This document shows positions 24,893-52,177 of a DNA stretch of 64,000 bases, piece after piece. The position numbers and the translations under genes are program-made. Origin of the DNA: a bacterium HR35 (GTDB lineage: Bacteria > Patescibacteriota > Minisyncoccia > UBA6257 > HR35); the NCBI GenBank assembly GCA_002898235.1, contig BEIL01000001.1:125041-189040 (forward strand), read 5' to 3'. The notes beneath the pieces were generated by a model, which was given only the letters and a program-made list of their open reading frames with translations, did no database searches and was not told where the DNA came from. Every line of letters begins with the position of its first letter. The stretch's first letter is position 1.

Positions 24893-24989
24893 TTTGATTT
24901 TTTAATTATTTTTAATTTTGACCGACCATTTTTATTTCTTAATTTTAACTCAAAGAATTTTTAAAAAAAAAATAAAATTTGTGAAAAAG

Positions 24990-27013: not shown

Positions 27014-28272
27014 CTGAATTTCTTAAAGATTAAAAAAGAAAGAATTCCTCCCAAAATTATAATTAAAATTCTAGAAAAATTAGATTGGAAAAATTTTAAG
27101 GGTAAATTTATTTGAAGATTATTAGAAGTTGTTGACAAATTTACCGAAGCTGAAGTTGAGATTTCTGAATCGGTTGGTTTTAAAAATTTATTAAGAGAGG
27201 TGGTTTGAAACAATTCTTTATTTTTTGATGTTTCTAAAGAGCTTGGGGGTAAATTAGTGGATTTTCTTTGTAAGTTTTTAGAAGTTAAATTAGAAGAGGT
27301 TGAGATTGAAGAAGTTTTATTTTGAAATGGAGAGTAATTTTCTTTTTTTAGCAATTGAGGAGTTTCTTCTTTTTTATTATTCTCTTCTAAATTTTTCGAG
27401 GGAGAATTTTGAGATGAAGTAGAATTTTCTGTTTCGAAAGTTTTGAAAAGCGGAGTCTCAAATGTTCCTTGACTTTCGGTTTTATTTTCCCAATAATCTT
27501 TTACTTCTAAAAGATAGGAATAATTTTTTCCTGGATCAGTCCTAATAACTAAATCACATTTTTTCAAATTAACTGGGCAAGTGTTAAAATAATCAATTTT
27601 CACCTCTGTTGATGGTTCACCAAAAGCATTATAAACTAATTTGTATTTTACTGGTTCATCGGCATAAAAAGAAATTCTTGTTTGATTTTCACTCAAGAAT
27701 TCAATTTGAAGCTCAGAAATAACGGGGGGTAGATTTTCTTTACCTTCATAGAGAGCTAGTTTTAAAATTTTATCAGATGGTTCATCATTAATTAATAACT
27801 CTCTAACTCCTTCAAAAACATAACTTTTTTCTTCTGTTCCTTGGAGAAGGTTTTGATTATAGAAAAAATATAAATTAAGGTTGCTTCTTTGAAGAGGTTG
27901 GATGATAATTAAATACTTTTCGCCAGAATTTATTCTTAAATTATTTCCTAAAGGAAAAAAGTATTCAGTTCCCCAATTATTTTCAGAAACAACCGGGATG
28001 GTAAAATTTTTTTCAAAAATTACTAAACCATTTTTATCCTCAATTTTTAAATTAATTTCAGTTTCTTGAGGATTATCAATCCATAAACTAAGACCACTTA
28101 AAAAATCATTTACTGGAATTATAGGTTGGGTTATTTTTTTAGTTCCTAGACGAAATTTATTCGAAGTTAAAGGAAAAATCTCATAAAATTTATTTACTTC
28201 TTGGCTAAAAACAAAAACTGAAAAAAATAAACTAAGGAGTAAGAATAACTTTTTCATGATAAAATTCTTCAT
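27010..28272 (-). CDS. Hypothetical cell-surface protein with Ser/Thr-rich stalk and C-terminal TM anchor
   Basis: Signal peptide, a ~270-aa globular region, an S/T/N-rich low-complexity stalk and a C-terminal hydrophobic anchor ILIIILGGILSFLIFKKFR. Confidence 0.4.
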   Translation of the reverse strand: MKNFIMKKLFLLLSLFFSVFVFSQEVNKFYEIFPLTSNKFRLGTKKITQPIIPVNDFLSGLSLWIDNPQETEINLKIEDKNGLVIFEKNFTIPVVSENNWGTEYFFPLGNNLRINSGEKYLIIIQPLQRSNLNLYFFYNQNLLQGTEEKSYVFEGVRELLINDEPSDKILKLALYEGKENLPPVISELQIEFLSENQTRISFYADEPVKYKLVYNAFGEPSTEVKIDYFNTCPVNLKKCDLVIRTDPGKNYSYLLEVKDYWENKTESQGTFETPLFKTFETENSTSSQNSPSKNLEENNKKEETPQLLKKENYSPFQNKTSSISTSSNLTSKNLQRKSTNLPPSSLETSKNKELFQTTSLNKFLKPTDSEISTSASVNLSTTSNNLQINLPLKFFQSNFSRILIIILGGILSFLIFKKFR

Positions 28273-29995
28273 CAGAAAGAATTATAGTTTTATTATAAAA
28301 GAAATAACCTGGTTTAGTAACTTCGAGATTATATTCTCCGGGTGGTAAATTTTCAAACAAAACCTCGCCAGGAGAAAAACAAGAAGAATAAAAACTAAGA
28401 GAAACTTTATCTAAATAAGGAGTTACTGATGGGTCATTTGTTTGTAAGTAAACTTTATAACGAAAATAGCGATTATTTCTTAATATTGAAGGTAAATTAA
28501 ATTCAGAATCTTCAAAATAAGAATTACTAGTGCCATCAGGACCAATAAAATTCCAAGTTAAATTATCATTGTTAGCACTAACTTGAAATTTTATTGAAGT
28601 TCCTGGAGGTTTATTCCCTACCCAACTAAATTTTTTAAAAGCAGTTGTTGAGGTTCCTAAATCAATTGTTTTAGAAACCAACCATTCAGTTGAAGTTGAG
28701 TAAAATCCACCTAAATCCTTAAGTTTTAAAATTTCCGGATTAGAATCAGGATCAATTCCTGAACTTAAAGAATCATAACTATTATTCCAAGTATTGTTAA
28801 CTATTGTTTCTTCGCCAGTAGTTTTTTCCCAATATTCATTAACATTTTTAGTAACTCTTACATTAGCTCCATCAAGATAATTGCCAGCTTCATCAACAAC
28901 ACTAACCAAAAGATTTATCGGCGAACGGGAACTTAAGGTCAAATCATAAAAATAGTTAGAATTAGGCTTGACTTCAAATGGTTCTTCCAAAAATGGTTGA
29001 CTACTTCTTAATACATATCGAGAATCAGTTATAGTCAAATAGTAATTATCAAACTCAACATTTAATTCTTTAAAACCATTTTCATCTGTTGTAGTAGTTA
29101 TATCAGTTTTACTTTTTGGTGGATCAAAATTAATTAATTTTGTCCCTTTTAGATTAAATTGAGCAAAACTTAATGGTTGACAAAAGATATTATGAGTTTT
29201 AATTTTTAATTTACTTAAAAGATCAATTTGAAGAGTGACGGTCGTTAATTCACCAGCTCGGACAGTTTGATGAGGTAAAATCGGATTGGGTGTTTCTTGG
29301 GTTCCTGGCTGGTAAGTTCTATCAAAGGAATAACCACTTTTGGTAACATAAATGCTATAAGCATTAATTCCTGGAGGAATATCAATTAATCTTAAAATTC
29401 CTAAATTATCAGTTATATCTTGAATAGTAAATTGAGGAGAGTTTAAATAATCAACCTTTACCGAAGCATTAGCTACTGGTTTTCCTTCAGCATTAATTAC
29501 TTGGATAAACATTGAACCATTTCTAGTTAAAGCTTCAACTGTTTTAGGAGCTATATAGGTAGTTAAGACTTGTTTTTTTATTGGCAAAGAACAATTTAAA
29601 CATTCTCCTTCCAATTCTACTAATTTATAATCAGCTGGAGCAGTATCTCGAGGAGTTGAGGTTATAGTGCCATCTTTTGGATCATCAATATTTCTTATAT
29701 AAAAAGTAACCTTTATTTGAAGACCTCCTTTTTCAATTATTTTTTCTTTAGGCAAAATTCCAGGAGGCCAACTTCCTTGAATGCCAACATCTTCATATTT
29801 TAAAACTTTGATTTTTTCAATTTCATCTTGAAGAGCTGAAATAATTTGAAGATTAATTCGAGCTGAAGCTAAAATTCTGTTTACATTTTGAAAAAGAGAA
29901 AAAATAAAAGTTGAAATCAAAGCAATGATAGCTAAACTTAAAAGGACTTCAATCAAGGTAAAACTTTTATCTTGATAATTTATTGGAAATTTCAT
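28232..29995 (-). CDS. Large minor pilin (prepilin-type N-terminus, 587 aa) with beta-rich C-terminal domains; candidate tip or adhesin subunit
   Basis: KS-FTLIEVLLSLAIIALISTFIF prepilin N-terminus followed by ~550 aa of Ig/carboxypeptidase-regulatory-like beta domains. Confidence 0.65.
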   Translation of the reverse strand: MKFPINYQDKSFTLIEVLLSLAIIALISTFIFSLFQNVNRILASARINLQIISALQDEIEKIKVLKYEDVGIQGSWPPGILPKEKIIEKGGLQIKVTFYIRNIDDPKDGTITSTPRDTAPADYKLVELEGECLNCSLPIKKQVLTTYIAPKTVEALTRNGSMFIQVINAEGKPVANASVKVDYLNSPQFTIQDITDNLGILRLIDIPPGINAYSIYVTKSGYSFDRTYQPGTQETPNPILPHQTVRAGELTTVTLQIDLLSKLKIKTHNIFCQPLSFAQFNLKGTKLINFDPPKSKTDITTTTDENGFKELNVEFDNYYLTITDSRYVLRSSQPFLEEPFEVKPNSNYFYDLTLSSRSPINLLVSVVDEAGNYLDGANVRVTKNVNEYWEKTTGEETIVNNTWNNSYDSLSSGIDPDSNPEILKLKDLGGFYSTSTEWLVSKTIDLGTSTTAFKKFSWVGNKPPGTSIKFQVSANNDNLTWNFIGPDGTSNSYFEDSEFNLPSILRNNRYFRYKVYLQTNDPSVTPYLDKVSLSFYSSCFSPGEVLFENLPPGEYNLEVTKPGYFFYNKTIILSDEEFYHEKVILTP

Positions 29996-31031
29996 AAATA
30001 GGAGTAATAACTGCTAAAGCAATAAAACCTACTGAAGCGGCGATTATTATTAAAATCAAAGGCTCGAGAGAATTGACAAATCTTTCTAAATCAATATCTA
30101 ATTCTTCGTCATAATTTTCGGCAAGATAAAAAAGAGTATTGGCTAAATTACCGCTTTTTTCTCCAATAATTACCATCTGAATAAAATTATAAGGAAAATA
30201 TTTTTTATTTTTTTGTAAAAATTCTCCTAAGCTATGACCTTTAGAAATAAAATCAACTCCCTCAAGGACAATTTTTTGATAAACTAAATTTTCTAAACTT
30301 TCTCCGGAGAGTTTTAAAGCTTCAACTATTGGTAAACCACTTTCCAAAAGAATTGCCAAATTACGAGAAAATTGGGCTAAAACATATTTTCTAATTAAAC
30401 CAGAAACAAGAGGAAAATGAATTAAAAAGAAATGAAAACCGTATTTAAGTTGCTGAAATCTTAAAAGAAGAGGAAAAGAAAAAAATAGGATTAGGAGGCT
30501 TAAAAAGAGATAGATCCCATAATTTAAAAGAAATAATGAGACTGATAAAAAGATTTTAGTAGTTAAGGGTAATTCTACTCCTAAGTTTTGAAAAATAGGT
30601 AAAAGCCTAGGAAAAAGAAAATAAACAACCAAAACTATAATTCCTATCATAGAGCCAATAATAAAAGAGGGATAGATAAAAGAAGTTATCATTTTGCTCC
30701 TAAGCTTTTCTATTTTCCTAAATTCAATAGCTAATCTTTCTAAATTATCAGTTAGTTTTCCTGTATATTCACCAACTCTAATAACCGAAACAAAAAAATT
30801 GCCTAATTTATTATTAAATTTTTCTAAAGCAGTAGCTAAAAATTGACCTCTTTCAATGTCATTAATTATCTCACCCAAGATATATCTTAAAGATTTCGAA
30901 GAGCTACTTTCTCTTAAAATAATTAAAGCTTCAGAAAGGCTAATTCCACTTTTTAAAAGAAGAGCTAGATTTCTGGAAAAATTTATTTTATCGTTTAAAG
31001 TTACTCTAAAAATAAAAGGTTTTTTATTCAT
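29967..31031 (-). CDS. pilC: Type IV pilus assembly platform protein PilC (GspF family)
   Basis: Two T2SSF repeats (LLKSGISLSEALIIL...; LLESGLPIVEALKL...) with polytopic TM helices. Confidence 0.85.
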   Translation of the reverse strand: MNKKPFIFRVTLNDKINFSRNLALLLKSGISLSEALIILRESSSSKSLRYILGEIINDIERGQFLATALEKFNNKLGNFFVSVIRVGEYTGKLTDNLERLAIEFRKIEKLRSKMITSFIYPSFIIGSMIGIIVLVVYFLFPRLLPIFQNLGVELPLTTKIFLSVSLFLLNYGIYLFLSLLILFFSFPLLLRFQQLKYGFHFFLIHFPLVSGLIRKYVLAQFSRNLAILLESGLPIVEALKLSGESLENLVYQKIVLEGVDFISKGHSLGEFLQKNKKYFPYNFIQMVIIGEKSGNLANTLFYLAENYDEELDIDLERFVNSLEPLILIIIAASVGFIALAVITPIYEISNKLSR

Positions 31032-32268
31032 GGCTAACTCTTAAAACTTCTTCGATGGTGGTAATCCCCTGAATAACCTTTCTTATACCATCTTCCAAAA
31101 TTGTTGTCATTCCCAATTCAATTGCTTTATCTTTAATTTCAGTTGAACTTGCTTTTTTAAGAATCAATTCTCTAATCTCATCAGAAATACTTAAAACTTC
31201 ATAAACTCCAGTTCGACCATAATATCCAGTATTGTTACAATTTTTACAACCCTCACCATAATTTATTTTAGTTATTTTTTCTAGTTCCTCGATTGTTCTT
31301 TCTGGTAAAAATTCTTTTAAAGATTCAATTTCTGCTTTTTTTATTTCTCTTTCCTTTCGACAATAATTGCAAATTTTTCTAACCAACCTTTGACCAATTA
31401 CTACATTCACAGTTGAAGCAATAAGATATGGCTCAACTCCTAATTCTAAAAGCCTAACAATAGCTCCAGGAGCATCATTAGTATGCAAAGTCGACAAAAG
31501 TAGATGGCCTGTTAAAGCAGCATTAACGGCAATACTTGCTGTTTCTTCATCTCTAATTTCTCCTACCATAATAATATCAGGGTCTTGTCTTAAAATAGCT
31601 CTTAAACCTTTACCAAAGGTCAAATTAGTTTGAGGATTAACTTGAATTTGAGTAATTCCTGGAATGGCATATTCTACGGGATCTTCAATGGTAATTATAT
31701 GAACTCCTTCGGTATTTAAAACATTCAAAATAGTATAAAGCATTGTTGTTTTTCCTGAACCCGTTGGTCCAGTAGCTAAAATCATTCCGTATGGTCGAGA
31801 AATTGCCTTTTTTATTTCTTCTAAATCTCGAGATGATAGTCCTAAATTTTCTAAAGTAAATTTTTCTCCTAGACTGACTAATAATCTTAAAATTGCATTC
31901 TCTCCGTAATAAGTAGGCATAATTGAAACCCTAATATCAAAATAATCATTTTTTTCTTCATCAAGATAAAAACGAAAGCGCCCATCTTGAGCAGCAAAAT
32001 GTTCGTCAATCCTCAGATTAGATAAAATCTTTATCCTGGAAATTATTTCATCTTGAAGAACTTTAGGAATTTCAAAAAAATTATGAACAATTCCATCTAT
32101 CCGATAGCGAGCTAATAAATATTTTTCTCTCGGTTGAAGATGAATATCCGAAGCTCGAGAAAGATAACCTAAAAGAATAAGATTTTTAACTATTTCAACA
32201 ATTGAAGCGACTTCTTGAGGTTTTTTAATTTCTTCTTCAATAATTGTTTTTAAAGATTCAATCTCCAT
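31024..32268 (-). CDS. pilB: Type IV pilus assembly ATPase PilB (GspE family)
   Basis: Walker A ATGPTGSGKTT, Asp and His boxes, and the C-terminal tetracysteine CNYC...CKNC typical of PilB/GspE and absent from PilT. Confidence 0.85.
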   Translation of the reverse strand: MEIESLKTIIEEEIKKPQEVASIVEIVKNLILLGYLSRASDIHLQPREKYLLARYRIDGIVHNFFEIPKVLQDEIISRIKILSNLRIDEHFAAQDGRFRFYLDEEKNDYFDIRVSIMPTYYGENAILRLLVSLGEKFTLENLGLSSRDLEEIKKAISRPYGMILATGPTGSGKTTMLYTILNVLNTEGVHIITIEDPVEYAIPGITQIQVNPQTNLTFGKGLRAILRQDPDIIMVGEIRDEETASIAVNAALTGHLLLSTLHTNDAPGAIVRLLELGVEPYLIASTVNVVIGQRLVRKICNYCRKEREIKKAEIESLKEFLPERTIEELEKITKINYGEGCKNCNNTGYYGRTGVYEVLSISDEIRELILKKASSTEIKDKAIELGMTTILEDGIRKVIQGITTIEEVLRVSHE

Positions 32269-33108
32269 TTAAAAACTTGTTTCTTCTTCTAAAATCTCGC
32301 CAAGCACAACTTCTGGATTAGCAGCTGCTTTTTCTAAGTTTTCAATTAAAGTGTTAAAGAGGTCATCAAATTCGGTTGGTAGTCTTTTTCTTTTATAAGG
32401 ATTAGCCCAGGAAATGATTTGTTGATAAATATAAGGATGCCACTTATCCATTTCTTTTAATTTTTGAGCAATATCTCTAACTAAAGTATTAGCCTGAATT
32501 ACTTTTTCGCTTCGAGCTTCTCTAACTTTTAGAGCTGTTTCTAATGGTTCATCTAAGAAGAAATCACATTTTTTAAGAATTGACTCAAAAGAACTTCCAG
32601 ACAGTTTTTCAGCCTTTTCGTAAGCTATTCCCAAAGTTACATAATAAGCTTGTTCAATTGAGTCAGCTATTTCCGGATCAGATTCAATCATCTGAGGATT
32701 AGCTTCTAAATATTGTCTATAAATAGCAATAGCTACATAAGATTTTTCTCTAATATTCAGTTCTTTTTCAATATTAAAGTTCATCATTAATTGAGCCAAT
32801 CTTTCAGGAACAACAATAGCTGGCAATTCTTTAATTCCTAGTTCTTTAGCGGCTAAAAGCCGATGTTGACCATCAATAATCATATACATTCCATCTTCTC
32901 GCGGGACAACAATTACCGGAACAATAAACCCTATTCTTTCAATTGAATTAACTAGATGTTTGACATGATAAGGACTGGGTTTTCGCTGATGAGGAACTAC
33001 AGTTAAATTTTCAATAGGAATCATTTTAAATTGTAAATCTTGATGATGGTAGGGGTCCTTAAAGGAAAAAATACCAACTTGGGTTTCTTTCTTTTTTCTG
33101 GGGCTCAT
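32269..33108 (-). CDS. ParB/Srx-fold (ParB N-terminal domain) protein, first gene of the pilus operon
   Basis: ParBc motifs IPIENLTVVPHQRKP ... MIIDGQHRLLAAKELGIKELPAIVVP. No recognisable ParB HTH or dimerisation domain. Its stop abuts the pilB ATG. Confidence 0.7.
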   Translation of the reverse strand: MSPRKKKETQVGIFSFKDPYHHQDLQFKMIPIENLTVVPHQRKPSPYHVKHLVNSIERIGFIVPVIVVPREDGMYMIIDGQHRLLAAKELGIKELPAIVVPERLAQLMMNFNIEKELNIREKSYVAIAIYRQYLEANPQMIESDPEIADSIEQAYYVTLGIAYEKAEKLSGSSFESILKKCDFFLDEPLETALKVREARSEKVIQANTLVRDIAQKLKEMDKWHPYIYQQIISWANPYKRKRLPTEFDDLFNTLIENLEKAAANPEVVLGEILEEETSF

Positions 33109-33200
33109 TTTTTATTTTTTTTTAATTAATTCGGCTCTTTTTAGGTATAATACTATTAATATTTATTATACCTCAATTTTTTATTTAAAAAAATCAAAAA

Positions 33201-36200
33201 ATGCAAAAAGAAATAGAAGATTTATTTACCTTTTACCTTGAAATTTGCCCAATTGACAAAGCTGGTGCTTTTTCGAAAGAAATTTTTAATTATGGACTAT
33301 GTGAAAGAGATTTTTCTTTCTTTAAAAAAAGCTTGTGGGAGATTAAAGAAAGTGAAATTGATCAAAGTTTATTAAATTTTTATTCTCAGAATTATGAAGT
33401 CTATAAAAAATTAAAAGAATATAAAGATTTTTTTGAAAAAAATTTAGGCTTTCCACCTTTTAAATTAAACCTTTATTGGGCTCAAAGAGTTTTCAAACAT
33501 GAGTCTTTCACAATTATTGCTCCTACTGGCATAGGTAAAACTACTTTTGGAATTGCCATCTCTCATTTTTATCCAGGGAAGGTTTATTATTTAGTTCCTT
33601 CTAAAATTTTACTTGCCGAAATTGAAAGAAAATTAAATTTGATAAAATCAAACAAAAAAATTTTAGTTATCAAAAAACCCGAAGATAAAGAAAAACTTCT
33701 AAGCGGAGATTTTGATATTTTAGTAACTACTTCTCATTTTCTTCATAAAAATTTTGATAATCTACCTAAAAATTTTGAATTGGTTTTCATTGATGATTCT
33801 GATTCTTTAATAAGACAACCCAAAAATATAGATAAGGTTTTAAAGCTTATAGGAGTGACAGATGAAGAAATTAACCAAGCTCTGGAAATAATTTCTAAAA
33901 AAAGACAAGCTAAAAATTTTGAAGATTATCAAAAAATCGACAAATTAGAAATTGACCCCAAAACTAAAGGAATAGTTATTGCTGCCTCGGCTACTTTAAC
34001 TCCCAAAACTAAAAGAATAAACCTTTTTAGAGAAATTTTAAAATTTGAAATTGGTTCTTCATCGACTTATTTGAGAAATATCGAAGAAGTTTATCAATTA
34101 GTATCTAAAGATAATCTTTGGCTCGAATCAATTAAATGGATTAAAAAATTAGGAGATGGCGGTTTTGTTTTTTTGAGCGATGATTATAATAAACAAGATT
34201 TAGAAAATTATTTAAGTTTATTAAAGGAAAACGGAATAACTGCTGTCTCTTATGAAAAATTTAATTCTAAAAATTTGAAAAAATTTTTAGACGATGAGAT
34301 TCAAGTAGTGGTTGGTTTTTCTAATATTAAAAATCCTTTAACTCGAGGAATTGACCTTCCTCAAAAGGTAAGGTATGCTCTTTTTATAGGCGTTCCTAAG
34401 TTTATTCTTTCCTTAAAAATCAGTTTTAGTCCTCTTCAACTTTTTTGGATTTCTTTAACTCTAAGAGAATTTTTAGAAGAGATGGAAAAAAATTTTATTA
34501 ATCGCCACATCAATTTTCTTAAAAAAATTTCTTATTTGAAAGAAGAAGAAATTTTAGCTAATAAAATTCTTAAAGAAAGAATTGAACCTTTAAGAAATTT
34601 TTTGATAGAAAAAATTAATTCTGCTGAAATTTTAGAAAAAATTAAAAATCATCCACGATTAGTTTTGGAAAAAAGAAAAGAAGAGTTTGTTTTACTTATT
34701 TCTGATCCTCGAGGTTATCTTCAAGCTTCAGGAAGAACTTCTAGACTTTTTCCTTTAGGTTTAACTAAGGGTTTAGCTTTACTTTTAACTGAAAATGAAA
34801 AACTGCTCAGACATCTTGAAGACAAATTAAAAATTATTGGTTACCAAACAAAATTTAAAGAAGTCAAAGAAGTAAATTTAGAAGAAATTCTTAAAAAAAT
34901 CGATGAAGATCGAGAAATTGTTAAAAGAGTTTTTAAAGGAGAAGAATTTGTTTTCAAAGATCCAATTGAAACAGCTTTAGTTATTGTTGAGTCACCAACA
35001 AAAGCAAGAACAATTTCTAATTTTTTTGGTAGACCGGCAAGAAGAATTAAAAGGGGGGTAACTATTTATGAAATTTCTTTAGGTAATCTTCATTTAAACA
35101 TTTGTGCTACTATGGGGCATTTTGTTGATTTAGTTTATTCTAAAGGTTATTATGGAGTTGAGGTTAAAGATGGAAATTTTTACCCTATTTTTCAATATAT
35201 AAAAATTTGTCAAAATTGTGGTCGCCATCTTGATTTTAGCGAAGATGCTTGTCCCATTTGTGGTTCAAATAATATTTTTACCAAAAGAAATATTATCGAA
35301 GGCTTAAAAGAAATAGCTGAAGAGGTTAACAAAATTTATTTAGCTACTGACCCTGATGCCGAAGGAGAAAAAATTGCTTATGATTTAGCCAATTTTCTCT
35401 ATCCTTATAATCAAAATCTTTATCGTTTAGAACTTCATGAAATTACTAAAGAGGAATTTTTAAAAAGATTAAAAGAACCACGAGAAATCAATTTAAATTT
35501 AGTTAAAGCTCAACTTGTCAGAAGGATAGCTGATCGATGGGTAGGTTTATATTTAAGTGAAAAAATTCAAAATCATTTTAAAAACCTTAACCTCTCTGCT
35601 GGTAGGGTTCAAACACCAATTCTGGGTTGGATATTAGAAAGAAATAAAGAAATAAAAAACAAAATTTATTTTATTAATGTTGAAAGCGAAGGTGGCAATT
35701 TTGCTTTTGAAACAACTGAAAAAAATAAAGTTCAGGAATTGAAAAAACTTTTTAAAAATAATGAGTTAAAAATTAAAATAAAAATTGAAAAAACTGAAGA
35801 AAAAAAACTTTCTCCTCCGCCACCTTATGAAACTAATAGTCTTTTAAGAGATGCTTTTAATTTTTTTAAATTTTCTTCTCAAACAACAATGAATTTAGCT
35901 CAAGATTTATTTGAAAGAGGTTTAATTACTTATCATCGAACTGATTCGATTTATATTTCTGAATTAGGAAGATTTTTAGCTCGAGAATATTTAGAAAAAA
36001 ATAATCTTTTAGAAATCTATCAACCTCGAAGTTGGGGCAGTCAAGGAACCCATGAGGGCATTAGGCCAACTAGAGTTTCAGATGTTAATGATTTGATTGA
36101 AGAAATGATAATAAGCGGCAGAAGAGAACTAAATGCTAACCATCTTAAGCTTTATGGTTTAATCTTTAATCGTTTTTTAGCTTCTCAAGTTAAAGAAGCT

Positions 36201-36692
36201 CAAATTATGGAAGCTCTTTTAAAAATAAAGTTGTTAGATTTAGAAAAAGAAACTAAAGAGGTTTTAAAAATTAATCAATTGGGTTATCTTCAATTTTTTA
36301 AAAATATAAGAACAAATGAAATTAAAGAAGGTGAATTTTTAGTTAAGAAGATAAATATTAAAAGAAGACCAAGGGAGTTTTATTATTCTCAGGCAGAGTT
36401 AATAGAAACAATGAAAACTCGTGGTTTAGGACGACCTTCAACTTATGCTACTTTTATTCAAACGCTTCTTGAAAGAAAATATGTTCTTGATAAATCTGGC
36501 TACTTAATTCCTACATCTTTGGGAGAAAAAATTTATAATTATCTTAAGAAGAAATATAACTATTATGTTGATGAAAACTTTACTAGAATTTTAGAAAAAA
36601 ATATGGATGAGATTGAAAATGGTCTATTAGATTACAAAAAAGTTTTAGAGGAAATTTTTATTAAACTATTTAATAAAAATGCAACTCATTGA
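33201..36692 (+). CDS. rgy: Reverse gyrase (helicase-like domain fused to type IA topoisomerase)
   Basis: N-terminal SF2 helicase-like module FPPFKLNLYWAQRVFKHESFTIIAPTGIGKTTFG ... FIDDSDSL. Then a topo IA module with TOPRIM ALVIVESPTKARTISNFFG, a zinc ribbon CQNCGRH...CPICGS and the catalytic Tyr block ITYHRTDSIYIS. 1163 aa. Confidence 0.9.
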   Translation: MQKEIEDLFTFYLEICPIDKAGAFSKEIFNYGLCERDFSFFKKSLWEIKESEIDQSLLNFYSQNYEVYKKLKEYKDFFEKNLGFPPFKLNLYWAQRVFKHESFTIIAPTGIGKTTFGIAISHFYPGKVYYLVPSKILLAEIERKLNLIKSNKKILVIKKPEDKEKLLSGDFDILVTTSHFLHKNFDNLPKNFELVFIDDSDSLIRQPKNIDKVLKLIGVTDEEINQALEIISKKRQAKNFEDYQKIDKLEIDPKTKGIVIAASATLTPKTKRINLFREILKFEIGSSSTYLRNIEEVYQLVSKDNLWLESIKWIKKLGDGGFVFLSDDYNKQDLENYLSLLKENGITAVSYEKFNSKNLKKFLDDEIQVVVGFSNIKNPLTRGIDLPQKVRYALFIGVPKFILSLKISFSPLQLFWISLTLREFLEEMEKNFINRHINFLKKISYLKEEEILANKILKERIEPLRNFLIEKINSAEILEKIKNHPRLVLEKRKEEFVLLISDPRGYLQASGRTSRLFPLGLTKGLALLLTENEKLLRHLEDKLKIIGYQTKFKEVKEVNLEEILKKIDEDREIVKRVFKGEEFVFKDPIETALVIVESPTKARTISNFFGRPARRIKRGVTIYEISLGNLHLNICATMGHFVDLVYSKGYYGVEVKDGNFYPIFQYIKICQNCGRHLDFSEDACPICGSNNIFTKRNIIEGLKEIAEEVNKIYLATDPDAEGEKIAYDLANFLYPYNQNLYRLELHEITKEEFLKRLKEPREINLNLVKAQLVRRIADRWVGLYLSEKIQNHFKNLNLSAGRVQTPILGWILERNKEIKNKIYFINVESEGGNFAFETTEKNKVQELKKLFKNNELKIKIKIEKTEEKKLSPPPPYETNSLLRDAFNFFKFSSQTTMNLAQDLFERGLITYHRTDSIYISELGRFLAREYLEKNNLLEIYQPRSWGSQGTHEGIRPTRVSDVNDLIEEMIISGRRELNANHLKLYGLIFNRFLASQVKEAQIMEALLKIKLLDLEKETKEVLKINQLGYLQFFKNIRTNEIKEGEFLVKKINIKRRPREFYYSQAELIETMKTRGLGRPSTYATFIQTLLERKYVLDKSGYLIPTSLGEKIYNYLKKKYNYYVDENFTRILEKNMDEIENGLLDYKKVLEEIFIKLFNKNATH

Positions 36693-38304
36693 TTTATATC
36701 GAAAAACAAAATTAATTTTAAAAAAAGAACTTTCTCCAGCTGACTATTTAGCTTTAGAAAAAGATTTAAAATTTTTTCTGACCAAAGATGAAAATTTTGG
36801 TGATTATTCAACTAATCTTCTTTTTCTTTTAAAAAAAATAAAACCAGAAAAAGAAGAGGTTATTTTAGAAACTATAAAAAATAAATTTAAAAATTATTTT
36901 GACAGAATTGAAGTTGAAGGTGGATATCTTAATTTTTACTTAGGAGAAAAAGTTTTATTTGAGGATTTAAGGGAAATTCTTAAAAAACGATACAAATTTT
37001 TCTTTTCTCTTTTTAAAAAACAAAGAGTTGTTCTTGATTATGTTTCAGCTAATCCAACTGGTCCTCTTCATTTAGGAAATATTAGATCAGCAGTTTTAGG
37101 AGATAGTTTGGCTAATTTTTTAAAACTTTTGGGTTTTAAGGTTACTAAAGAATATTATGTTAATGATCGAGGAACCCAAATAGAAATTTTAGCTAAATCA
37201 GCTAAAGCCTATCTTAATCTTTTACCCTTTGAAGATGAATATTATCGAGGTGAGTATTTAGAAAAAATTGCTCAAAAATATAAAGATTATGTTAAAAAAG
37301 AAGAAAACTTTGAAAAACTGGGTAAATTTTTAGCAAAAATTATTTTAGAAGGTGAAATTAAAAAATCTTTAAAAAGATTAGGAACAAAATTCGATAATTA
37401 CTTTTTTGAATCATCTCTTTATCAAGATAAAAAACTTATCGATAGAGTTTTAAAAATTTTTGAGAAAAAAAATCTTTTGGAGAAAAAAAATGGAGCCTTA
37501 ATTCTTAAATTAACTAAAGTAGGGGAAAATAAAGATGAATTTTTAATTAGGGAAAACGGCAAGCCAACTTATTTTTTCTCTGATATTCTTTATCATTACC
37601 AAAAATTCTTTATTAGAAAATTTAAACTTTTAATAGATATTTTTGGCGCTGACCATCATGACCATATAAGAAGATTAAAAAAAACTCTAGAAATTTTGGG
37701 TATTAAAGAAAAAAATCTAAAATTTATCACTTATCAACATGTTCTTATAAAGAGGGGAGAAGAAATTTTAAGAATGTCAAAAAGAAAGGGAGTTTATATT
37801 ACTATTGACGAACTTTTAGATGTTTTACCAAGTGGTTTAGTTAGGTTTCTTTTTTTAGCTATTACGCCAGATTCACCTTTAGAATTTGATTTAGAATTAG
37901 CTCTTAAAAAAAGCGAGGAAAATCCTTATTGGTATAGTCAATATGCCTCTGCTCGCCTAAATAGCATCTTAGAGAAATTAAAAGAAAAAGGTTATAAAAT
38001 TAACATAAAACTTGATCCACAAAAGATTGCTTCTCATTTAATTAAAGATGAGTTAATTAAAAATCTAGTGAGAAGTTTTCACAAATTTAAAGATTTAAAT
38101 TTAATCATCATTAAAGAATTAAAACCAAATCTTTACTATGATTTCTTCCTCAATTTCATCAAAAAGATTCATTATTTTTATGAAAATAAAAAAATAATTA
38201 GAGAAGAAATCGATCGTCGCGAGGTAGTTTTCGTTAAAACTTTAAGAGATGTCTTAGGTTTTTGGTTTAAACTTATGGGCGTTGAGCCGATGAAAAAAAT
38301 TTAA
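36679..38304 (+). CDS. argS: Arginine--tRNA ligase
   Basis: Class I HIGH-region DYVSANPTGPLHLGNIRSAVLGD and the ArgRS anticodon-binding C-terminus. Confidence 0.9.
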   Translation: MQLIDLYRKTKLILKKELSPADYLALEKDLKFFLTKDENFGDYSTNLLFLLKKIKPEKEEVILETIKNKFKNYFDRIEVEGGYLNFYLGEKVLFEDLREILKKRYKFFFSLFKKQRVVLDYVSANPTGPLHLGNIRSAVLGDSLANFLKLLGFKVTKEYYVNDRGTQIEILAKSAKAYLNLLPFEDEYYRGEYLEKIAQKYKDYVKKEENFEKLGKFLAKIILEGEIKKSLKRLGTKFDNYFFESSLYQDKKLIDRVLKIFEKKNLLEKKNGALILKLTKVGENKDEFLIRENGKPTYFFSDILYHYQKFFIRKFKLLIDIFGADHHDHIRRLKKTLEILGIKEKNLKFITYQHVLIKRGEEILRMSKRKGVYITIDELLDVLPSGLVRFLFLAITPDSPLEFDLELALKKSEENPYWYSQYASARLNSILEKLKEKGYKINIKLDPQKIASHLIKDELIKNLVRSFHKFKDLNLIIIKELKPNLYYDFFLNFIKKIHYFYENKKIIREEIDRREVVFVKTLRDVLGFWFKLMGVEPMKKI

Positions 38305-38751
38305 ACCTTCTTGAAAAATTAAAGCTAAAAGAAAACCGATTAAAAAACCAAAAATGACATCTTGAGGCCAATGGGCTAAAGAAACAATACTTAAAACAGA
38401 AATTAAAAGAGAAATAGCTAAAGAAAAAAGAAAAAATTTAAAGTCATAATAAAGAAGCAAAAAAGTTAAAGCAAAACTTAAAGCAGTATGCCTTGAAGGA
38501 AAACTATTTTTTTCTTTCAAACCCAAACCAAGGTAAGTTAAGGGCCTAACTTCGGGAAACTTATCTTTTAAAAAACCAACTAACAAAAAGACAATGATAA
38601 AAATTAAAAAAAATCTTAAAAGAAAAAAGAAACCTTGTTTTAAATTTTTCTTAATTTCTCTTAGAGCCAGATAAAAAATAATCAAAAATTGACTTAAAAT
38701 TAAAATATCTCTCAAAAAATTTAATAAGTAAAAATAAGTAAAGATTGTCAT
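38254..38751 (-). CDS. PAP2 family membrane phosphatase (undecaprenyl-diphosphatase-like)
   Basis: PAP2 motifs SFPSRHT and SLAHWPQDV in a multi-TM protein. Confidence 0.7.
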   Translation of the reverse strand: MTIFTYFYLLNFLRDILILSQFLIIFYLALREIKKNLKQGFFFLLRFFLIFIIVFLLVGFLKDKFPEVRPLTYLGLGLKEKNSFPSRHTALSFALTFLLLYYDFKFFLFSLAISLLISVLSIVSLAHWPQDVIFGFLIGFLLALIFQEGLNFFHRLNAHKFKPKT

Positions 38752-38768
38752 TAAATTTATTTTAACTA

Positions 38769-40214
38769 ATGTTTAAAAAAATTTTAAACTATTTATTTAA
38801 AAACTTTTCACACGAACAAACAATAGTTAAAAATTCTTTTTGGATTGCTCTTTCAAGAATTCTTTCGAGTTTTTTTAGGGCTATTTTGGTAATTTTAAGT
38901 TTTAGGATTTTAGGACCAGAATATCAAGGAAGTTTTTACTTAGCAATGAATTTTCTTTTAATTTTTAGTGTTATTCCTGAGTTTGGTATGGTGCCTATTT
39001 TTATAAAAGAATTAACTAAAGGCGACAAAGAAGAAAAATATTTAGTAGCTAATTTTTTAGTTACTTTTTTTCTTCTCTTTTTATTTTCTTTATTTTTAAT
39101 TTTTTTAGGTGAAAAATTAATTGTTAAAGATTTGCTAGCTAAAAAGATTATCTGGATTTTAGTTATTTTTGTTTTCTTTGATATCTTTCGAGAGCTTCTT
39201 TACGCTATTTTTCGGGCTCAAGAAAAAATGGAATATCAAGCTTTTAGCTTTTCTTTAACTAATTTTTTAATCTTAATTTTTGGAGTTTTCTTTCTTTTGA
39301 AATTTAAACAACCTTATTTTTTAGCTTTAGCCTATCTTCTGGGAGGTTTTTTGGGCTTTTTTTTTACTCTTTTTCTTTTGAATTTTAGGGTTATTTTTAA
39401 TTATTTTAAGTTTTTTGAATTTAAGAATATTATAAAAATTTTAAATCAAAGTTGGGCGATTGGAATAGCTAATTTTATTTTTCTTTTAATTACTTATGTT
39501 GATTCTTTAATCCTGGGTTATCTAAGTACTACAAAAGATGTTGGTATTTATAATTCTGTTGTAAAAATTAATGAGTTTCTTTATTTTTTACCTCTTTCCT
39601 TAGCAATGGCTCTTTTTCCTAAAATAACAAAAAATTTAGAAAAAAAGGAAGAAATTGGAAATATTTTAAATTTTGGCTTTAGCTTGGCTTTACTTCTTTC
39701 TTTGCCGCTCGTTTTTGGAGTTTTTACTCTTTCTTTTGATTTCTTAAATTTTCTTTACGGAAAAGACTATCTCGAAGCTGATTTAGCCTTAAAACTAATC
39801 AGCCTTTCAATTCCTTTTAATTTTCTTTTTCTCATTTTAGTTGATACTCTAATTGCTTTAGATAAAAGAAGAGAACTTTTAAAATTTGATTTTCTAATTT
39901 TAATCATCAATATTTTTCTTAATATTATCTTTATTCCTTATTTCTCCTATTTTGCTTCAAGCTTAATTACTTCTTTTTCTTCCTTGCTTTCATTTTTATT
40001 TAGCTTCTTTTTAGTAAAAAAATATATAAATTTTTCTTTTAATTTAAAAGAAATTAAAAACTATTTATTAGCTTCCTTTTTAATGACTTTGCTTATCTCT
40101 TTTCTTTCCTTTCATCTGATTTTAAAAATCTTAATAGGTATAATTTTTTACTTTTTTTACCTTTGGCTACTTGAAGACAAAATTCTTATAAAAATCTTAA
40201 AACTTCCTGACTAA
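38769..40214 (+). CDS. Polysaccharide/lipid-linked oligosaccharide flippase family membrane protein (Wzx/MurJ-like MOP superfamily)
   Basis: About 12-14 TM helices with MOP flippase-like topology and periodicity. Confidence 0.6.
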   Translation: MFKKILNYLFKNFSHEQTIVKNSFWIALSRILSSFFRAILVILSFRILGPEYQGSFYLAMNFLLIFSVIPEFGMVPIFIKELTKGDKEEKYLVANFLVTFFLLFLFSLFLIFLGEKLIVKDLLAKKIIWILVIFVFFDIFRELLYAIFRAQEKMEYQAFSFSLTNFLILIFGVFFLLKFKQPYFLALAYLLGGFLGFFFTLFLLNFRVIFNYFKFFEFKNIIKILNQSWAIGIANFIFLLITYVDSLILGYLSTTKDVGIYNSVVKINEFLYFLPLSLAMALFPKITKNLEKKEEIGNILNFGFSLALLLSLPLVFGVFTLSFDFLNFLYGKDYLEADLALKLISLSIPFNFLFLILVDTLIALDKRRELLKFDFLILIINIFLNIIFIPYFSYFASSLITSFSSLLSFLFSFFLVKKYINFSFNLKEIKNYLLASFLMTLLISFLSFHLILKILIGIIFYFFYLWLLEDKILIKILKLPD

Positions 40215-41736: not shown

Positions 41737-41928
41737 TTACTTTAAATTTAAAATTAAAACCAGAAAAGCTAAATCGACCAGGGCAAAGAAAACTAGAAAG
41801 AAAAAAGAGAAAAAGAGAACTTCCATTGTTTTTTGAAATGTTTCTTCAGGAGTAATAAAATTCATTTTTTTAATCTCAGCTAATGTTTCTTTTAAATAAT
41901 TTTTTAACTTTAAAAGATATTCACTCAT
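41737..41928 (-). CDS. secE: Preprotein translocase subunit SecE
   Basis: 63 aa with a single C-terminal TM helix and LAEIKKMNFITPEETFQKTMEVL. Conserved secE-nusG-rplK gene order. Confidence 0.7.
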   Translation of the reverse strand: MSEYLLKLKNYLKETLAEIKKMNFITPEETFQKTMEVLFFSFFFLVFFALVDLAFLVLILNLK

Positions 41929-50550: not shown

Positions 50551-50561
50551 CTTTATAGTTT

Positions 50562-50603: not shown

Positions 50604-50640
50604 AAGACTCAGCTTAGAAAAGTTTGATCTTAGCTTTTAA

Positions 50641-52177
<1,537 letters not shown>

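What the first reader, a model, noticed from the sequence alone, without database searches (positions are those of the whole stretch)
33201..36692. Full-length reverse gyrase in an AT-rich small-genome bacterium, with a GC-rich 16S
The 1163-aa ORF carries both halves of reverse gyrase. The helicase-like half shows APTGIGKTTFG, DDSD and the rgy-specific FPPFKLNLYWAQRVF block. The topoisomerase IA half shows TOPRIM ESPTKARTI, a zinc ribbon and the catalytic YHRTDS. Reverse gyrase is the classic marker of hyperthermophiles and extreme thermophiles. The 16S in this window is conspicuously GC-rich while the genome is about 30% GC, the usual thermophile signature. If the organism is a CPR/Patescibacteria-type episymbiont, as its gene content suggests, a reverse-gyrase-bearing thermophilic member is uncommon and worth documenting. 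It may have been acquired horizontally from a thermophilic host or neighbour.
Basis: partly seen in the sequence, partly recalled or inferred. Interest (0 to 1): 0.7.

Follow-up and report, generated by a model that had tools for sequence, protein, structure and literature searches.

The report
Reverse gyrase in thermophilic Patescibacteria
The gene is a complete reverse gyrase, the DNA-overwinding enzyme typical of heat-loving microbes, in a tiny AT-rich Parcubacteria genome (MAG HR35) kept for years at 70 °C; this fits the usual link between the enzyme and heat, and it belongs to a separate Patescibacteria branch with an altered N-terminal zinc finger.

Summary
ORF 33201-36692 (+) encodes 1163 aa. 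It matches the reverse-gyrase equivalog TIGR01054 end to end (1111 bits, cutoff 472). All helicase-like and topoisomerase IA catalytic motifs are present. The AlphaFold model superposes on T. maritima reverse gyrase (TM 0.83).

The host is settled. The protein is 100% identical to GenBank 'Reverse gyrase [bacterium HR35]'. HR35 is a 0.6-Mb, 28.5% GC Parcubacteria MAG from 65/70 °C bioreactors seeded from a 69-72 °C stream. It gives its name to GTDB family HR35 (Paceibacteria). The 16S is 56.8% GC against 27.9% for the rest of the window.

The gene is not a recent import. Its GC is host-like, its neighbourhood is the same in related genomes, and it diverged in step with the neighbouring gene. 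About 55 sequence clusters form one branch (97-100% bootstrap). A Dadabacterium and a 65% GC bacterium branch at or just outside its base, which favours one ancient acquisition.

The new detail is that the four-cysteine N-terminal zinc finger is replaced across the branch by CxxD...CxxD.

Verdict: ordinary in kind and already annotated, but little discussed. Moderate interest.

The parts
33201..36692 (+). Reverse gyrase gene (rgy), 1163 aa, full length
   Evidence: ORF. TIGR01054 at 1111 bits against cutoff 472, profile 6-1168/1172. Pfam DEAD/ResIII + Toprim + Topoisom_bac. AF2 pLDDT 89.9, TM 0.83 to T. maritima RG 7fsf. 100% identical to GenBank 'Reverse gyrase [bacterium HR35]'. Gene GC 26.8%.
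33234..33320 (+). Altered N-terminal knuckle (Zn1 position), residues 12-40: C16-P-I-D19 ... C34-E-R-D37 instead of CxxC...CxxC
   Evidence: Alignment columns: the four ligands are Cys in 61/61 sequences outside the branch. Within the 55-member branch they are C 55/55, D 50/55, C 50/55, D 45/55. No zf_Rg (PF17915) hit, unlike relatives outside the branch. The region is still modelled at pLDDT ~95.
33519..33542 (+). Helicase motif I / Walker A, APTGIGKT (residues 107-114)
   Evidence: A107, G110, G112 and K113 are invariant across 108 RGs.
33786..33803 (+). Helicase motif II, FIDDSD (residues 196-201); the branch has DDAD/DDSD where other RGs have DDVD
   Evidence: D198 and D199 are invariant.
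34398..34700 (+). Insertion in RecA-like domain H2 at the position of the 'latch' (about residues 400-500), mostly helical in the model
   Evidence: It lies between the invariant P399 and D502/Y506. AF2 secondary structure: H411-482 then E488-501. The review defines the latch by this position (PMC4117796).
34722..34745 (+). Helicase motif VI, QASGRTSR (residues 508-515)
   Evidence: Q508, G511, R512, S514 and R515 are invariant.
34977..35444 (+). TOPRIM domain (residues 593-748), with E597 and D717-x-D719-x-E721
   Evidence: Pfam PF01751 E 4.6e-20. Invariant E597, D717, D719 and E721.
35208..35261 (+). Second zinc finger (Zn2 ribbon) inside TOPRIM: C670, C673, C684, C687
   Evidence: All four Cys are present in 55/55 branch members.
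35487..36647 (+). Type IA topoisomerase core (residues 763-1149); catalytic tyrosine Y911 in YHRTDS (nt 35931-35948)
   Evidence: Pfam PF01131 E 5.9e-83. Y911, H912, R913, T914 and S916 are invariant.
32269..33108 (-). ParB-fold gene (279 aa, GERR replaced by GQHR), transcribed away from rgy across a 92-bp spacer; a conserved neighbour of rgy in this lineage
   Evidence: Pfam ParB_N E 3.5e-10. Below cutoff for every named NCBIfam family. Next to rgy in the window, L001-L004, L011/12, L014, L016, L020 and L097/98. Identity matrices of the two genes correlate at r=0.81.
36679..38304 (+). Arginyl-tRNA synthetase gene; its start overlaps the rgy stop by 14 nt, so co-transcription is likely
   Evidence: ORF coordinates. 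Pfam tRNA-synt_1d, DALR_1, Arg_tRNA_synt_N. The same arrangement is seen in L001-L004, L015 and L097.
50640..52176 (-). 16S rRNA gene, 56.8% GC in a 28% GC genome; it links the contig to a Patescibacteria host
   Evidence: Rfam RF00177 at 1429.5 bits, model 1-1533. GC values. Stem versus loop GC 67.9% against 35.7%.

Best explanation
This is a genuine, almost certainly functional reverse gyrase, carried as a long-resident chromosomal gene of a thermophilic Patescibacterium: MAG HR35, class Paceibacteria, GTDB family HR35.

Mechanism, inferred from the conserved parts and from the established model for the family: the N-terminal pair of RecA-like domains binds and hydrolyses ATP (Walker A K113, motif II D198/D199/D201, motif VI Q508/R512/R515) and holds a locally melted DNA bubble. 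The C-terminal type IA topoisomerase cuts one strand through Y911, aided by the TOPRIM acidic residues E597 and D717/D719/E721. It passes the other strand and reseals, which raises the linking number by one per cycle. The H2 insertion ('latch') and the zinc-finger platform bias strand passage towards overwinding.

In this organism the enzyme would protect a 28% GC, roughly 0.6-0.8 Mb genome against strand separation and heat damage at about 70 °C.

The gene sits between a conserved ParB-fold gene and argS, and is probably co-transcribed with argS.

Evolution: the enzyme belongs to a distinct, well-separated reverse-gyrase branch shared by the HR35-family Patescibacteria. The branch is marked by CxxD...CxxD in place of the four-cysteine N-terminal zinc knuckle. 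It was most likely acquired once, long ago, from a free-living thermophilic bacterium and has been inherited vertically since.

Shown: identity, architecture, motif conservation, source temperature, synteny, monophyly. Inferred: enzymatic activity, physiological role, direction and age of the transfer, and whether the altered knuckle still binds metal.
For: Identity and integrity: TIGR01054 equivalog at 1111 bits against 472, end to end. Pfam DEAD/ResIII + Toprim + Topoisom_bac. PDB reverse gyrases at E 1e-187 and 1e-177, and the isolated RG helicase domain 3oiy/3p4x at E 1e-43 over residues 67-400. All catalytic residues are invariant in a 108-sequence alignment. AF2 pLDDT 89.9 and pTM 0.88; Foldseek TM 0.83 to 7fsf and 0.74 to 1gku over about 1,150 columns.

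Host and temperature: 100% identical to 'Reverse gyrase [bacterium HR35]' on a 247,965-bp contig. HR35 is Parcubacteria/OD1, 595,782 bp, 28.5% GC, from 65/70 °C reactors seeded from a 69-72 °C stream. Its coverage was 0.7-3.9x in four late reactor samples, 12.5x in one sample and 0.01x in the remaining two. GTDB family f__HR35. 16S 56.8% and tRNAs 61-64.5% GC against 27.9% for the rest of the window; IVYWREL 0.442; stems 67.9% against loops 35.7% GC.

Resident gene: its GC is 26.8%. More than 20 kb is collinear with four related genomes. The ParB-fold/rgy pairing occurs in both major sub-branches. RG and ParB-fold identities correlate at r=0.81, Mantel p about 2e-4.

Branch: NJ bootstrap is 100% (116 sequences, 1101 columns) and 97% (170 sequences). 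In an exhaustive search of 1.84 billion representatives the branch collapses to one representative at 1158 bits, and the next hit is at 900 bits. Outside the 54 Patescibacteria sequences sit a Dadabacterium, HRBIN37 (41% GC), and a 64.6% GC bacterium. Both have CxxD...CxxD.
Against: No activity has been measured. In T. maritima and T. tengcongensis enzymes, mutating or deleting Zn1 reduces or abolishes positive supercoiling (PMC4117796). An enzyme with two of the four zinc ligands changed might therefore supercoil poorly, or only relax DNA.

The coverage-column order in the HR35 table was inferred, not read from a header.

HR35 relatives from a 52 °C spring have published predicted optima of only 45-53 °C, so the link to extreme heat is looser than 'hyperthermophile marker' implies.

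My trees are neighbour-joining on a simple distance correction. The sister group of the whole CxxD-type lineage is unresolved (33% support), and support for the Dadabacterium lying outside the Patescibacteria is only 70-91%.

The IVYWREL formula is recalled from memory and is biased in AT-rich genomes.
Confidence: 0.88

Rival explanations
1. Recent horizontal pick-up: the gene was captured recently by this one organism from a thermophilic host or neighbour, which is the stronger form of the first reader's suggestion.
For: The only non-Patescibacteria member inside the 55-sequence branch is a Dadabacterium (HRBIN37) that co-occurs with HR35-family genomes at both Japanese sites. Reverse gyrase is known to move between lineages (PMC6878951).
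Against: Gene GC is 26.8%, equal to the host's. The position between the ParB-fold gene and argS is the same in relatives at 68-74% identity. The ParB-fold pairing persists down to 51% identity. The gene diverged in step with its neighbour. The Dadabacteria protein is only 49% identical.
Confidence: 0.04
2. Functionally diverged enzyme: because the four-cysteine Zn1 knuckle is replaced by CxxD...CxxD, the protein no longer overwinds DNA efficiently. It would act instead as an ATP-dependent relaxase, a DNA renaturase/chaperone, or a repair factor.
For: Two of the four zinc ligands are changed in 45-50 of 55 branch members. There is no zf_Rg Pfam match. Zn1 deletion in the T. tengcongensis enzyme abolishes supercoiling but not relaxation, and Zn1 mutation in the T. 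maritima enzyme reduces supercoiling (PMC4117796).
Against: The replacement is a conserved Asp at both positions, with His at some, rather than random decay. That points to a retained metal site or a stabilised fold. The region is modelled with pLDDT ~95 in the usual place. Zn2, the latch-position insertion and every catalytic residue are intact. About 10% of other reverse gyrases also have non-canonical Zn1, and the review says only that 'most' have it.
Confidence: 0.12
3. Assembly or binning artefact: the reverse gyrase belongs to a co-assembled thermophile, not to the small AT-rich genome.
For: One close relative's contig is labelled 'Thermodesulfobacteriota' in GenBank (L001), which shows that labels in this group can be wrong.
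Against: The gene lies on the same 64-kb window and 248-kb contig as the 16S rRNA and ordinary housekeeping genes. Composition is uniform at 24-33% GC apart from the rRNA. An independent Logan assembly of run DRR101367 gives the same gene order. L001 itself is 28% GC and collinear with the Patescibacteria contigs, so it is the label that is wrong.
Confidence: 0.01
4. Ancestral inheritance: reverse gyrase came down vertically from a thermophilic ancestor of all Patescibacteria (or of Bacteria) and was lost everywhere except in hot-spring lineages.
For: The branch is deep (down to about 50% identity within it) and sits on a long stem with no close outgroup.
Against: Members with a known taxonomy fall in one order/family (Paceibacteria; UBA6257; HR35). 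The nearest outgroups share the derived CxxD signature and are not Patescibacteria. The branch nests inside the bacterial-type group (99% split). Published analyses find that reverse gyrase is not ancestral to Bacteria (PMC6878951).
Confidence: 0.07

Closest known systems
Thermotoga maritima reverse gyrase (PDB 4DDU/4DDT/7FSF)
   Same: Single polypeptide with a helicase-like H1/H2 module, an insertion in H2, TOPRIM carrying the Zn2 ribbon, and a type IA core with the YHRTDS tyrosine. The model superposes at TM 0.81-0.83 over about 1,180 columns. Sequence match E 1e-177.
   Different: Only about 31% identity. The N-terminal Gag-knuckle has C-x2-D...C-x2-D instead of four cysteines. Motif II is DDSD/DDAD rather than DDVD. 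The latch-position insertion is predicted to be mostly helical.
Archaeoglobus fulgidus reverse gyrase (PDB 1GKU/1GL9)
   Same: Best sequence match among solved structures (E 1e-187). Same architecture (TM 0.74-0.76).
   Different: Archaeal, 32-33% identity, with four-cysteine Zn1.
Reverse gyrases of Aquificota, Thermodesulfobacteria and Caldisericum (Persephonella, Venenivibrio, Thermodesulfatator, Caldisericum exile)
   Same: The nearest named relatives outside the branch, at 38-42% identity and the same length. They fall on the same side of the 99%-supported split that separates bacterial-type from archaeal-type sequences.
   Different: All carry the zf_Rg domain with four cysteines. Many lack Zn2. 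The hosts are free-living with larger genomes.
Reverse gyrase of Dadabacteria HRBIN37 (P0053, BPIS01000004)
   Same: Basal member of the same branch, with the same CxxD...CxxD signature. It co-occurs with HR35-family Patescibacteria in the 70 °C reactor and in Katase hot spring.
   Different: 49% identity. The genome is 41% GC and 2.4 Mb, from a free-living-type organism. The neighbourhood differs (HSP20 upstream, ThiS/TtuA downstream) and there is no ParB-fold neighbour.
Bacterial topoisomerase I (TopA; e.g. T. maritima 2GAI, E. coli 1ECL)
   Same: The C-terminal 570 residues are homologous (E 1e-47 to 1e-59).
   Different: TopA lacks the helicase-like module. The window protein scores 323 bits against TIGR01051, below that model's cutoff of 456. 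It is therefore not TopA.

Membership tests
Reverse gyrase (NCBIfam TIGR01054, rgy) | Full-length match to the family's equivalog profile above its curated cutoff | tested here: met
   1111.4 bits against cutoff 471.7; protein 12-1155 matches profile 6-1168 of 1172.
Reverse gyrase (NCBIfam TIGR01054, rgy) | N-terminal SF2 helicase-like module with ATPase motifs I, II, III and VI | tested here: met
   APTGIGKT 107, FIDDSD 196, SAT 263, QASGRTSR 508. Key residues are invariant in 108 RGs. Matches the isolated RG helicase domain 3oiy/3p4x at E 1e-43.
Reverse gyrase (NCBIfam TIGR01054, rgy) | C-terminal type IA topoisomerase with TOPRIM acidic residues and a catalytic tyrosine, fused in one polypeptide | tested here: met
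   Toprim 593-748 and Topoisom_bac 763-1149. E597, D717, D719, E721 and Y911 are invariant. It is one uninterrupted ORF.
Reverse gyrase (NCBIfam TIGR01054, rgy) | Insertion ('latch') in RecA-like domain H2 after a conserved proline | tested here: met
   About 100 residues lie between invariant P399 and D502 and are modelled as helices plus a hairpin. The position matches the review's definition; the review notes that latch structure varies between enzymes.
Reverse gyrase (NCBIfam TIGR01054, rgy) | N-terminal four-cysteine zinc knuckle, Zn1 (Pfam zf_Rg). It is present in most but not all members, so it is not strictly defining. | tested here: not met
   C16/D19/C34/D37. No PF17915 hit. The branch-wide pattern is C/D/C/D, against Cys x4 in 61/61 other sequences. 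Among 144 further representatives, 111 are canonical, 14 are non-canonical and 19 lack an assessable N-terminus.
Reverse gyrase (NCBIfam TIGR01054, rgy) | Zn2 ribbon inserted in TOPRIM (present in many members) | tested here: met
   C670, C673, C684 and C687; 55/55 in the branch.
Reverse gyrase (NCBIfam TIGR01054, rgy) | Overall three-dimensional architecture of solved reverse gyrases | tested here: met
   AF2 pTM 0.88. Foldseek TM (query) 0.83 to 7fsf and 0.74 to 1gku; topoisomerase I alone covers only 0.39.
Reverse gyrase (NCBIfam TIGR01054, rgy) | ATP-dependent positive supercoiling of DNA | not testable with these tools
   Needs a biochemical assay.
Reverse gyrase (NCBIfam TIGR01054, rgy) | Occurrence restricted to thermophiles and hyperthermophiles | tested here: met
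   The source reactors ran at 65/70 °C with inoculum from 69-72 °C. Relatives come from Shuirebaozha spring at 78-80 °C, a 52 °C spring and Kerguelen hot springs. Sample data for most metagenome relatives could not be read.
Patescibacteria / CPR (host assignment) | Phylogenetic placement of the genome in Patescibacteria | tested here: met
   By identity to a published MAG, not by a new tree. HR35 is classed as Parcubacteria/OD1 from 43 marker genes and 16S. GTDB lineage: p__Patescibacteria; c__Paceibacteria; o__UBA6257; f__HR35. Close relatives are labelled Patescibacteria, Parcubacteria or Minisyncoccia.
Patescibacteria / CPR (host assignment) | Small genome, reduced metabolism, type IV pilus genes | tested here: met
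   MAG of 0.60 Mb, estimated 0.81 Mb. The window holds housekeeping genes plus a pilus cluster (PilB, PilC, pseudopilins) and few metabolic genes.
Bacterial topoisomerase I (TIGR01051, topA_bact) | Score above the family cutoff and no helicase module | tested here: not met
   322.8 bits against cutoff 456.4; the match covers only residues 593-1155.

The most novel reading that the evidence does not exclude
The HR35-family Patescibacteria carry their own reverse-gyrase lineage, in which the structural four-cysteine zinc knuckle between the helicase and topoisomerase modules was rebuilt as a conserved Cys2Asp2 (sometimes Cys2His/Asp) site. This is either an unusual metal site or a zinc-free fold. 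On this reading, a single ancient acquisition of this lineage from a free-living thermophile (its outgroups are a Dadabacterium and a 65% GC bacterium) is what let an ultra-small, 22-34% GC symbiont lineage colonise 50-80 °C habitats. It would then be a natural experiment on what Zn1 is for, which the 2014 review calls an open question.
Probability: 0.35. Interest if true: 0.55.

Novelty: new member of a known kind. Interest (0 to 1): 0.35.

Why it matters
Reverse gyrase is the one gene used as a presence/absence marker of life at high temperature, including in arguments about early evolution. The main published survey I could read (376 sequences, 2019) does not mention CPR bacteria.

This case shows that a whole family of ultra-small, very AT-rich, probably symbiotic bacteria carries an intact enzyme and persists at 70 °C. 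That extends the marker to a major part of the bacterial tree and fits the rule rather than breaking it.

It gives a simple genomic flag for thermophilic Patescibacteria.

It also offers a naturally varied N-terminal knuckle (CxxD...CxxD) on which to test the unresolved role of Zn1.

Relatives in a 52 °C spring, with predicted optima of 45-53 °C, bear on how low in temperature the enzyme is retained.

Tried and rejected
(1) Metagenome scan with an alignment of the branch. The tool chose universal motifs (ITYHRTDS, HEIT[KR]xEF), so only 4 of the 80 returned loci belonged to the branch. The other 76 served only as negative controls for the ParB-fold pairing.

(2) Promoter/terminator scan of 32900-38900. 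It found fewer promoter-like sites than shuffled sequence gives, so it is uninformative for this AT-rich genome.

(3) ParB-fold gene as a functional partner of reverse gyrase. I rejected this as the leading reading. The ParB-fold family is much larger than the reverse-gyrase branch (530 clusters). It occurs without an adjacent rgy (L099, L015). The pairing is better explained by conserved gene order.

(4) Donor identification. Neighbour-joining does not resolve the sister of the CxxD-type lineage among bacterial reverse gyrases (33% support). No maximum-likelihood tool was available.

(5) Literature searches for reverse gyrase together with Patescibacteria, CPR or Parcubacteria. They found no dedicated treatment. 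The only relevant text is one sentence in a Kerguelen hot-spring paper, which implies that its Paceibacteria MAG has the gene.

(6) Environmental metadata for JGI and Logan samples could not be read with these tools. The claim that all relatives come from hot sites therefore rests on the few I could trace.

(7) IVYWREL on short flanks of related loci gave noisy values of 65-104 °C. I use it only qualitatively.

Full report

Yes. The ORF listing returns a single ATG-started ORF at exactly 33201..36692 on the + strand, 1163 aa. All the quoted motifs are there:
- FPPFKLNLYWAQRVF (84-98)
- APTGIGKTTFG (107-117)
- FIDDSD (196-201)
- ESPTKARTI (597-605)
- a C-x2-C-x10-C-x2-C ribbon (670-687)
- YHRTDS (911-916)

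I also found helicase motif III (SAT, 263), motif VI (QASGRTSR, 508) and the TOPRIM DxDxE (717-721).

The 16S rRNA lies at 50640..52176 on the - strand (Rfam, 1429.5 bits). It is 56.8% GC, against 27.9% for the rest of the window. The three tRNAs are 61-64.5% GC. In an MFE fold of the 16S the excess GC sits in paired positions: 67.9%, against 35.7% unpaired. That is the pattern expected for heat-stabilised RNA in an AT-rich genome.

**2. What is the protein?**

- *Profile match.* It matches NCBI's reverse-gyrase equivalog model TIGR01054 from end to end: 1111 bits, cutoff 472, profile 6-1168 of 1172. It fails the bacterial TopA model (323 bits against 456).
- *Domains.* Pfam finds DEAD/ResIII, Toprim and Topoisom_bac in the right order.
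- *Solved structures.* The best hits are reverse gyrases of A. fulgidus (E 1e-187) and T. maritima (E 1e-177). The isolated T. maritima helicase domain aligns to residues 67-400 at E 1e-43. This removes the 'topoisomerase I fused to an unrelated ATPase' refutation.
- *Conserved residues.* In a 108-sequence alignment the ATPase residues (G110, G112, K113, D198, D199, Q508, R512, R515), the TOPRIM residues (E597, D717, D719, E721) and the catalytic tyrosine block (Y911-H-R-T) are invariant.
- *Predicted structure.* The AlphaFold2 model built on that alignment has mean pLDDT 89.9 and pTM 0.88. It superposes on T. maritima reverse gyrase at TM 0.83 and on the A. fulgidus enzyme at 0.74. Topoisomerase I structures cover only the C-terminal part (TM 0.39).

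**3. Whose gene is it, and how hot is its home?**

The protein is 100% identical to GenBank 'Reverse gyrase [bacterium HR35]', on a 247,965-bp contig. An independent Logan assembly of run DRR101367 shows the same gene order.

HR35 is one of 41 MAGs from Kato et al. 2018 (PMC5877337). The samples were flow-through bioreactors run at 65 °C and 70 °C for up to 1,579 days. The inoculum was a mat from a 69-72 °C, pH 6.1-6.4 subsurface geothermal stream.

The supplementary table lists HR35 as Parcubacteria/OD1: 595,782 bp in 5 contigs, longest contig 247,965 bp, 28.5% GC, 73.6% complete. Its coverages were 2.22, 3.93, 0.72, 1.14, 12.54, 0.01 and 0.01. I did not read the column header. I inferred that the first five columns are 70 °C samples and the last two the 65 °C reactor. 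This rests on the order in Table S1 and on the paper's statement that Fischerbacteria and Calescamantes, which show the same pattern, were rarer at 65 °C. That paper does not mention reverse gyrase.

A later paper's supplement shows that GTDB named a family after this genome: p__Patescibacteria; c__Paceibacteria; o__UBA6257; f__HR35.

Proteome indices over 54 window ORFs (19,073 aa) agree with thermophily:
- IVYWREL is 0.442, which gives about 79 °C with Zeldovich's regression. I quote that formula from memory, and it is biased by AT-richness.
- Charged-minus-polar is 8.7%.
- (E+K)/(Q+H) is 4.96.

**4. Is it a recent import?**

No.
- The gene's GC (26.8%) is that of the host.
- Four GTDB representative genomes with 68-74% identical enzymes are collinear with the window for 15-23 kb. 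The reverse gyrase always lies between a ParB-fold gene and argS.
- One of the four (L001) is labelled Thermodesulfobacteriota in GenBank. It is 28% GC and collinear with the Patescibacteria contigs, so the label is wrong.
- The divergent ParB-fold/rgy pair persists in far more distant members at 51-54% identity: L011, L014, L016, L020. None of about 76 loci with other reverse gyrases shows it.
- Across ten loci, the pairwise identities of the two genes correlate (r=0.81, Mantel p about 2e-4).
- The rgy stop overlaps the argS start by 14 nt, so the two are probably co-transcribed.

**5. The branch it belongs to**

A search of 5.8 billion proteins found about 55 clusters at 49-78% identity. Their names, where given, are Patescibacteria, Parcubacteria or Minisyncoccia. 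Identity then drops to 42% or less, for Aquificota, Thermodesulfobacteria, Caldisericum and archaea.

In neighbour-joining trees these 55 form one branch with 100% bootstrap (116 sequences, 1101 columns) and 97% (170 sequences). An exhaustive HMMER pass over 1.84 billion 50%-identity representatives found a single representative for the whole branch, at 1158 bits. The next hit scored 900 bits. The branch is therefore isolated in sequence space.

Where the sources could be traced, they are hot:
- the 70 °C reactor;
- a MAG whose isolate name starts 'SRBZ', the code of Shuirebaozha spring in Tengchong, 78-80 °C (link inferred from the name);
- Katase spring sediment at 52 °C, whose f__HR35 MAGs have Tome-predicted optima of 45-53 °C;
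- by implication, a Paceibacteria MAG from Kerguelen hot springs.

**6. Where did it come from?**

The earliest-branching member of the 55 is not a Patescibacterium. P0053 lies on a 348-kb, 41% GC contig (BPIS01000004) with a free-living-type gene neighbourhood. The Katase supplement classifies that MAG as Desulfobacterota_D/Dadabacteria, genus HRBIN37. That is the same species as MAG HR37 from the 70 °C reactor.

One step further out sits P0384, from a 64.6% GC contig with ABC transporters and an IS605 element. Its reverse gyrase is frameshifted. NJ support is 88% for P0384 joining the 55. Support for the 54 Patescibacteria sequences excluding the Dadabacterium is 70-91%.

Two successive outgroups outside Patescibacteria favour one old transfer into the ancestor of the HR35 family. 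Direction and donor remain inferences from modest support. The sister of the whole lineage among bacterial reverse gyrases is unresolved (33%).

**7. The one unusual feature**

Canonical reverse gyrases start with a Gag-knuckle zinc finger (Zn1, C-x2-C-x13/14-C-x2/7-C). It packs between the helicase and TOPRIM domains. Its mutation or deletion reduces or abolishes supercoiling, yet the review calls its role 'enigmatic' (PMC4117796).

In my alignment the four ligand columns are Cys in 61 of 61 sequences outside the branch. In the 55-member branch they are:

| Ligand | Residues across the 55 members |
|---|---|
| 1 | Cys 55/55 |
| 2 | Asp 50/55 |
| 3 | Cys 50/55 |
| 4 | Asp 45/55, His 6/55 |

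In this protein the four positions are C16, D19, C34 and D37. Consistently, the zf_Rg Pfam domain is absent from the precomputed domains of all 55, and present in nearly all the others.

Both outgroups (P0053, P0384) share the CxxD...CxxD pattern. Zn2 is intact in all 55. Motif II reads DDAD/DDSD where other reverse gyrases have DDVD.

Non-canonical Zn1 is not unique. Of 144 further representatives, 111 are canonical, 19 lack an assessable N-terminus, 13 are otherwise non-canonical (mostly with three cysteines) and 1 (P0384) has CxxD...CxxD.

A consistent replacement by a potential metal ligand, together with pLDDT ~95 for residues 11-60, suggests a remodelled site rather than a decayed one. 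Whether it binds metal cannot be decided here.

**8. How it most likely works**

I infer the standard reverse-gyrase cycle from the conserved parts and the literature model. The helicase-like module closes on ATP binding and holds a DNA bubble. Y911 cleaves one strand, the other strand passes through, and the break is resealed with a gain of one link. The H2 insertion and the zinc-finger platform impose the direction.

The physiological reading is also inference. A 28% GC genome has a bulk melting temperature not far above 70 °C: about 81 °C in standard saline by the Marmur-Doty relation, quoted from memory. Overwinding and strand-annealing activity should therefore be especially valuable to this organism.

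**9. Comparison with what is known, and novelty**

By every defining feature I could test, this is a member of the reverse-gyrase family. The exception is the four-cysteine Zn1, which is common but not universal in the family.

The gene has been annotated as reverse gyrase in GenBank since the MAG was deposited. One paper implicitly reports the gene in a Paceibacteria MAG. I found no paper that discusses reverse gyrase in Patescibacteria. The 2019 survey of 376 sequences does not mention CPR.

I therefore class it as a new, under-described member of a known kind. It conforms to the thermophily rule. A branch-specific Zn1 variant is its most original aspect.

**10. Verdict**

The horizontal-transfer idea survives only as an ancient event. 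Interest is moderate, at 0.35.

Noticed in passing
window 32269-33108 (-); also L001-L004, L011, L014, L016, L020, L097, L099, L100: The ParB-fold gene next to rgy has 'DGQHR' where partition ParB proteins have the GERR motif. It is below cutoff for every named NCBIfam family; its best PDB matches are SbnI and Spo0J. It is more conserved than the reverse gyrase (60-85% against 51-74% identity) and belongs to a large family (530 clusters). One 67%-identical member sits on an archaeal-looking contig (Nop10, eIF2-alpha, PAC2) from a hot-spring metagenome, which hints at transfer between domains.
   Followed up: partly
window 50640-50700 (16S 3' end) and the 25 nt upstream of 54 ORFs: The 16S 3' tail reads ...GAUGGACCAAUUCUG where other bacteria have ...GGAUCACCUCCUUA, so the CCUCC anti-Shine-Dalgarno sequence is missing. 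In keeping with this, GGAGG occurs upstream of 0 of 54 ORFs and GGAG/GAGG upstream of 2 of 54. The upstream regions are A/T-rich instead.
   Followed up: partly
window 50105-52176 (-): The 16S gene is followed by tRNA-Val(GAC) and then protein-coding genes. There is no 23S in the window, so the rRNA genes appear to be unlinked. The 515F primer site carries a mismatch: GTGCCAGCAGTCGCGGTAA.
   Followed up: no
L001 (JAUQQL010000009.1): This contig is labelled 'Thermodesulfobacteriota bacterium' in GenBank. It is 28% GC and collinear over 23 kb with the window and with Patescibacteria contig L002. It is probably mis-binned or mislabelled.
   Followed up: yes
L101 6001-9466 (DAOUCL010000233.1, GCA_034432015.1): A CxxD...CxxD-type reverse gyrase in a 64.6% GC genome outside the CPR is split by a frameshift near 7910-7944: 742-aa helicase part and 425-aa topoisomerase part. 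This could be a pseudogene, an assembly error or a split enzyme.
   Followed up: partly
window 24431-32268 (-): A type IV pilus cluster lies directly upstream of the ParB-fold gene. It holds PilB-like ATPase (T2SSE), PilC (T2SSF), two proteins with N-terminal methylation motifs (one of 587 aa with CarboxypepD_reg/SpaA/PEGA domains) and three ORFs with no Pfam match. The cluster is conserved in relatives.
   Followed up: no
P0063, P0076, P0099, P0108 (homologues); several representatives longer than 1,400 aa: Some reverse gyrases outside the branch are 1,480-1,710 aa long and carry intein and LAGLIDADG domains (PF14890, PF14528). No member of the Patescibacteria branch does.
   Followed up: no
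window 41925-44531 (-), 57838-59307 (-), 19246-21705 (+), 46918-48771 (+): ClpB disaggregase and an HtrA-like protease are plausible heat-stress genes. An 819-aa HerA/VirD4-like ATPase and a 617-aa ORF with no Pfam match are uncharacterised.
   Followed up: no
L099 (BPJH01000002, f__HR35): In this HR35-family genome the ParB-fold gene sits next to pilus-related genes but has no reverse gyrase beside it. In L015 (BPJI01) the two genes lie apart on the same contig. Whether every member of the family keeps rgy was not established.
   Followed up: no
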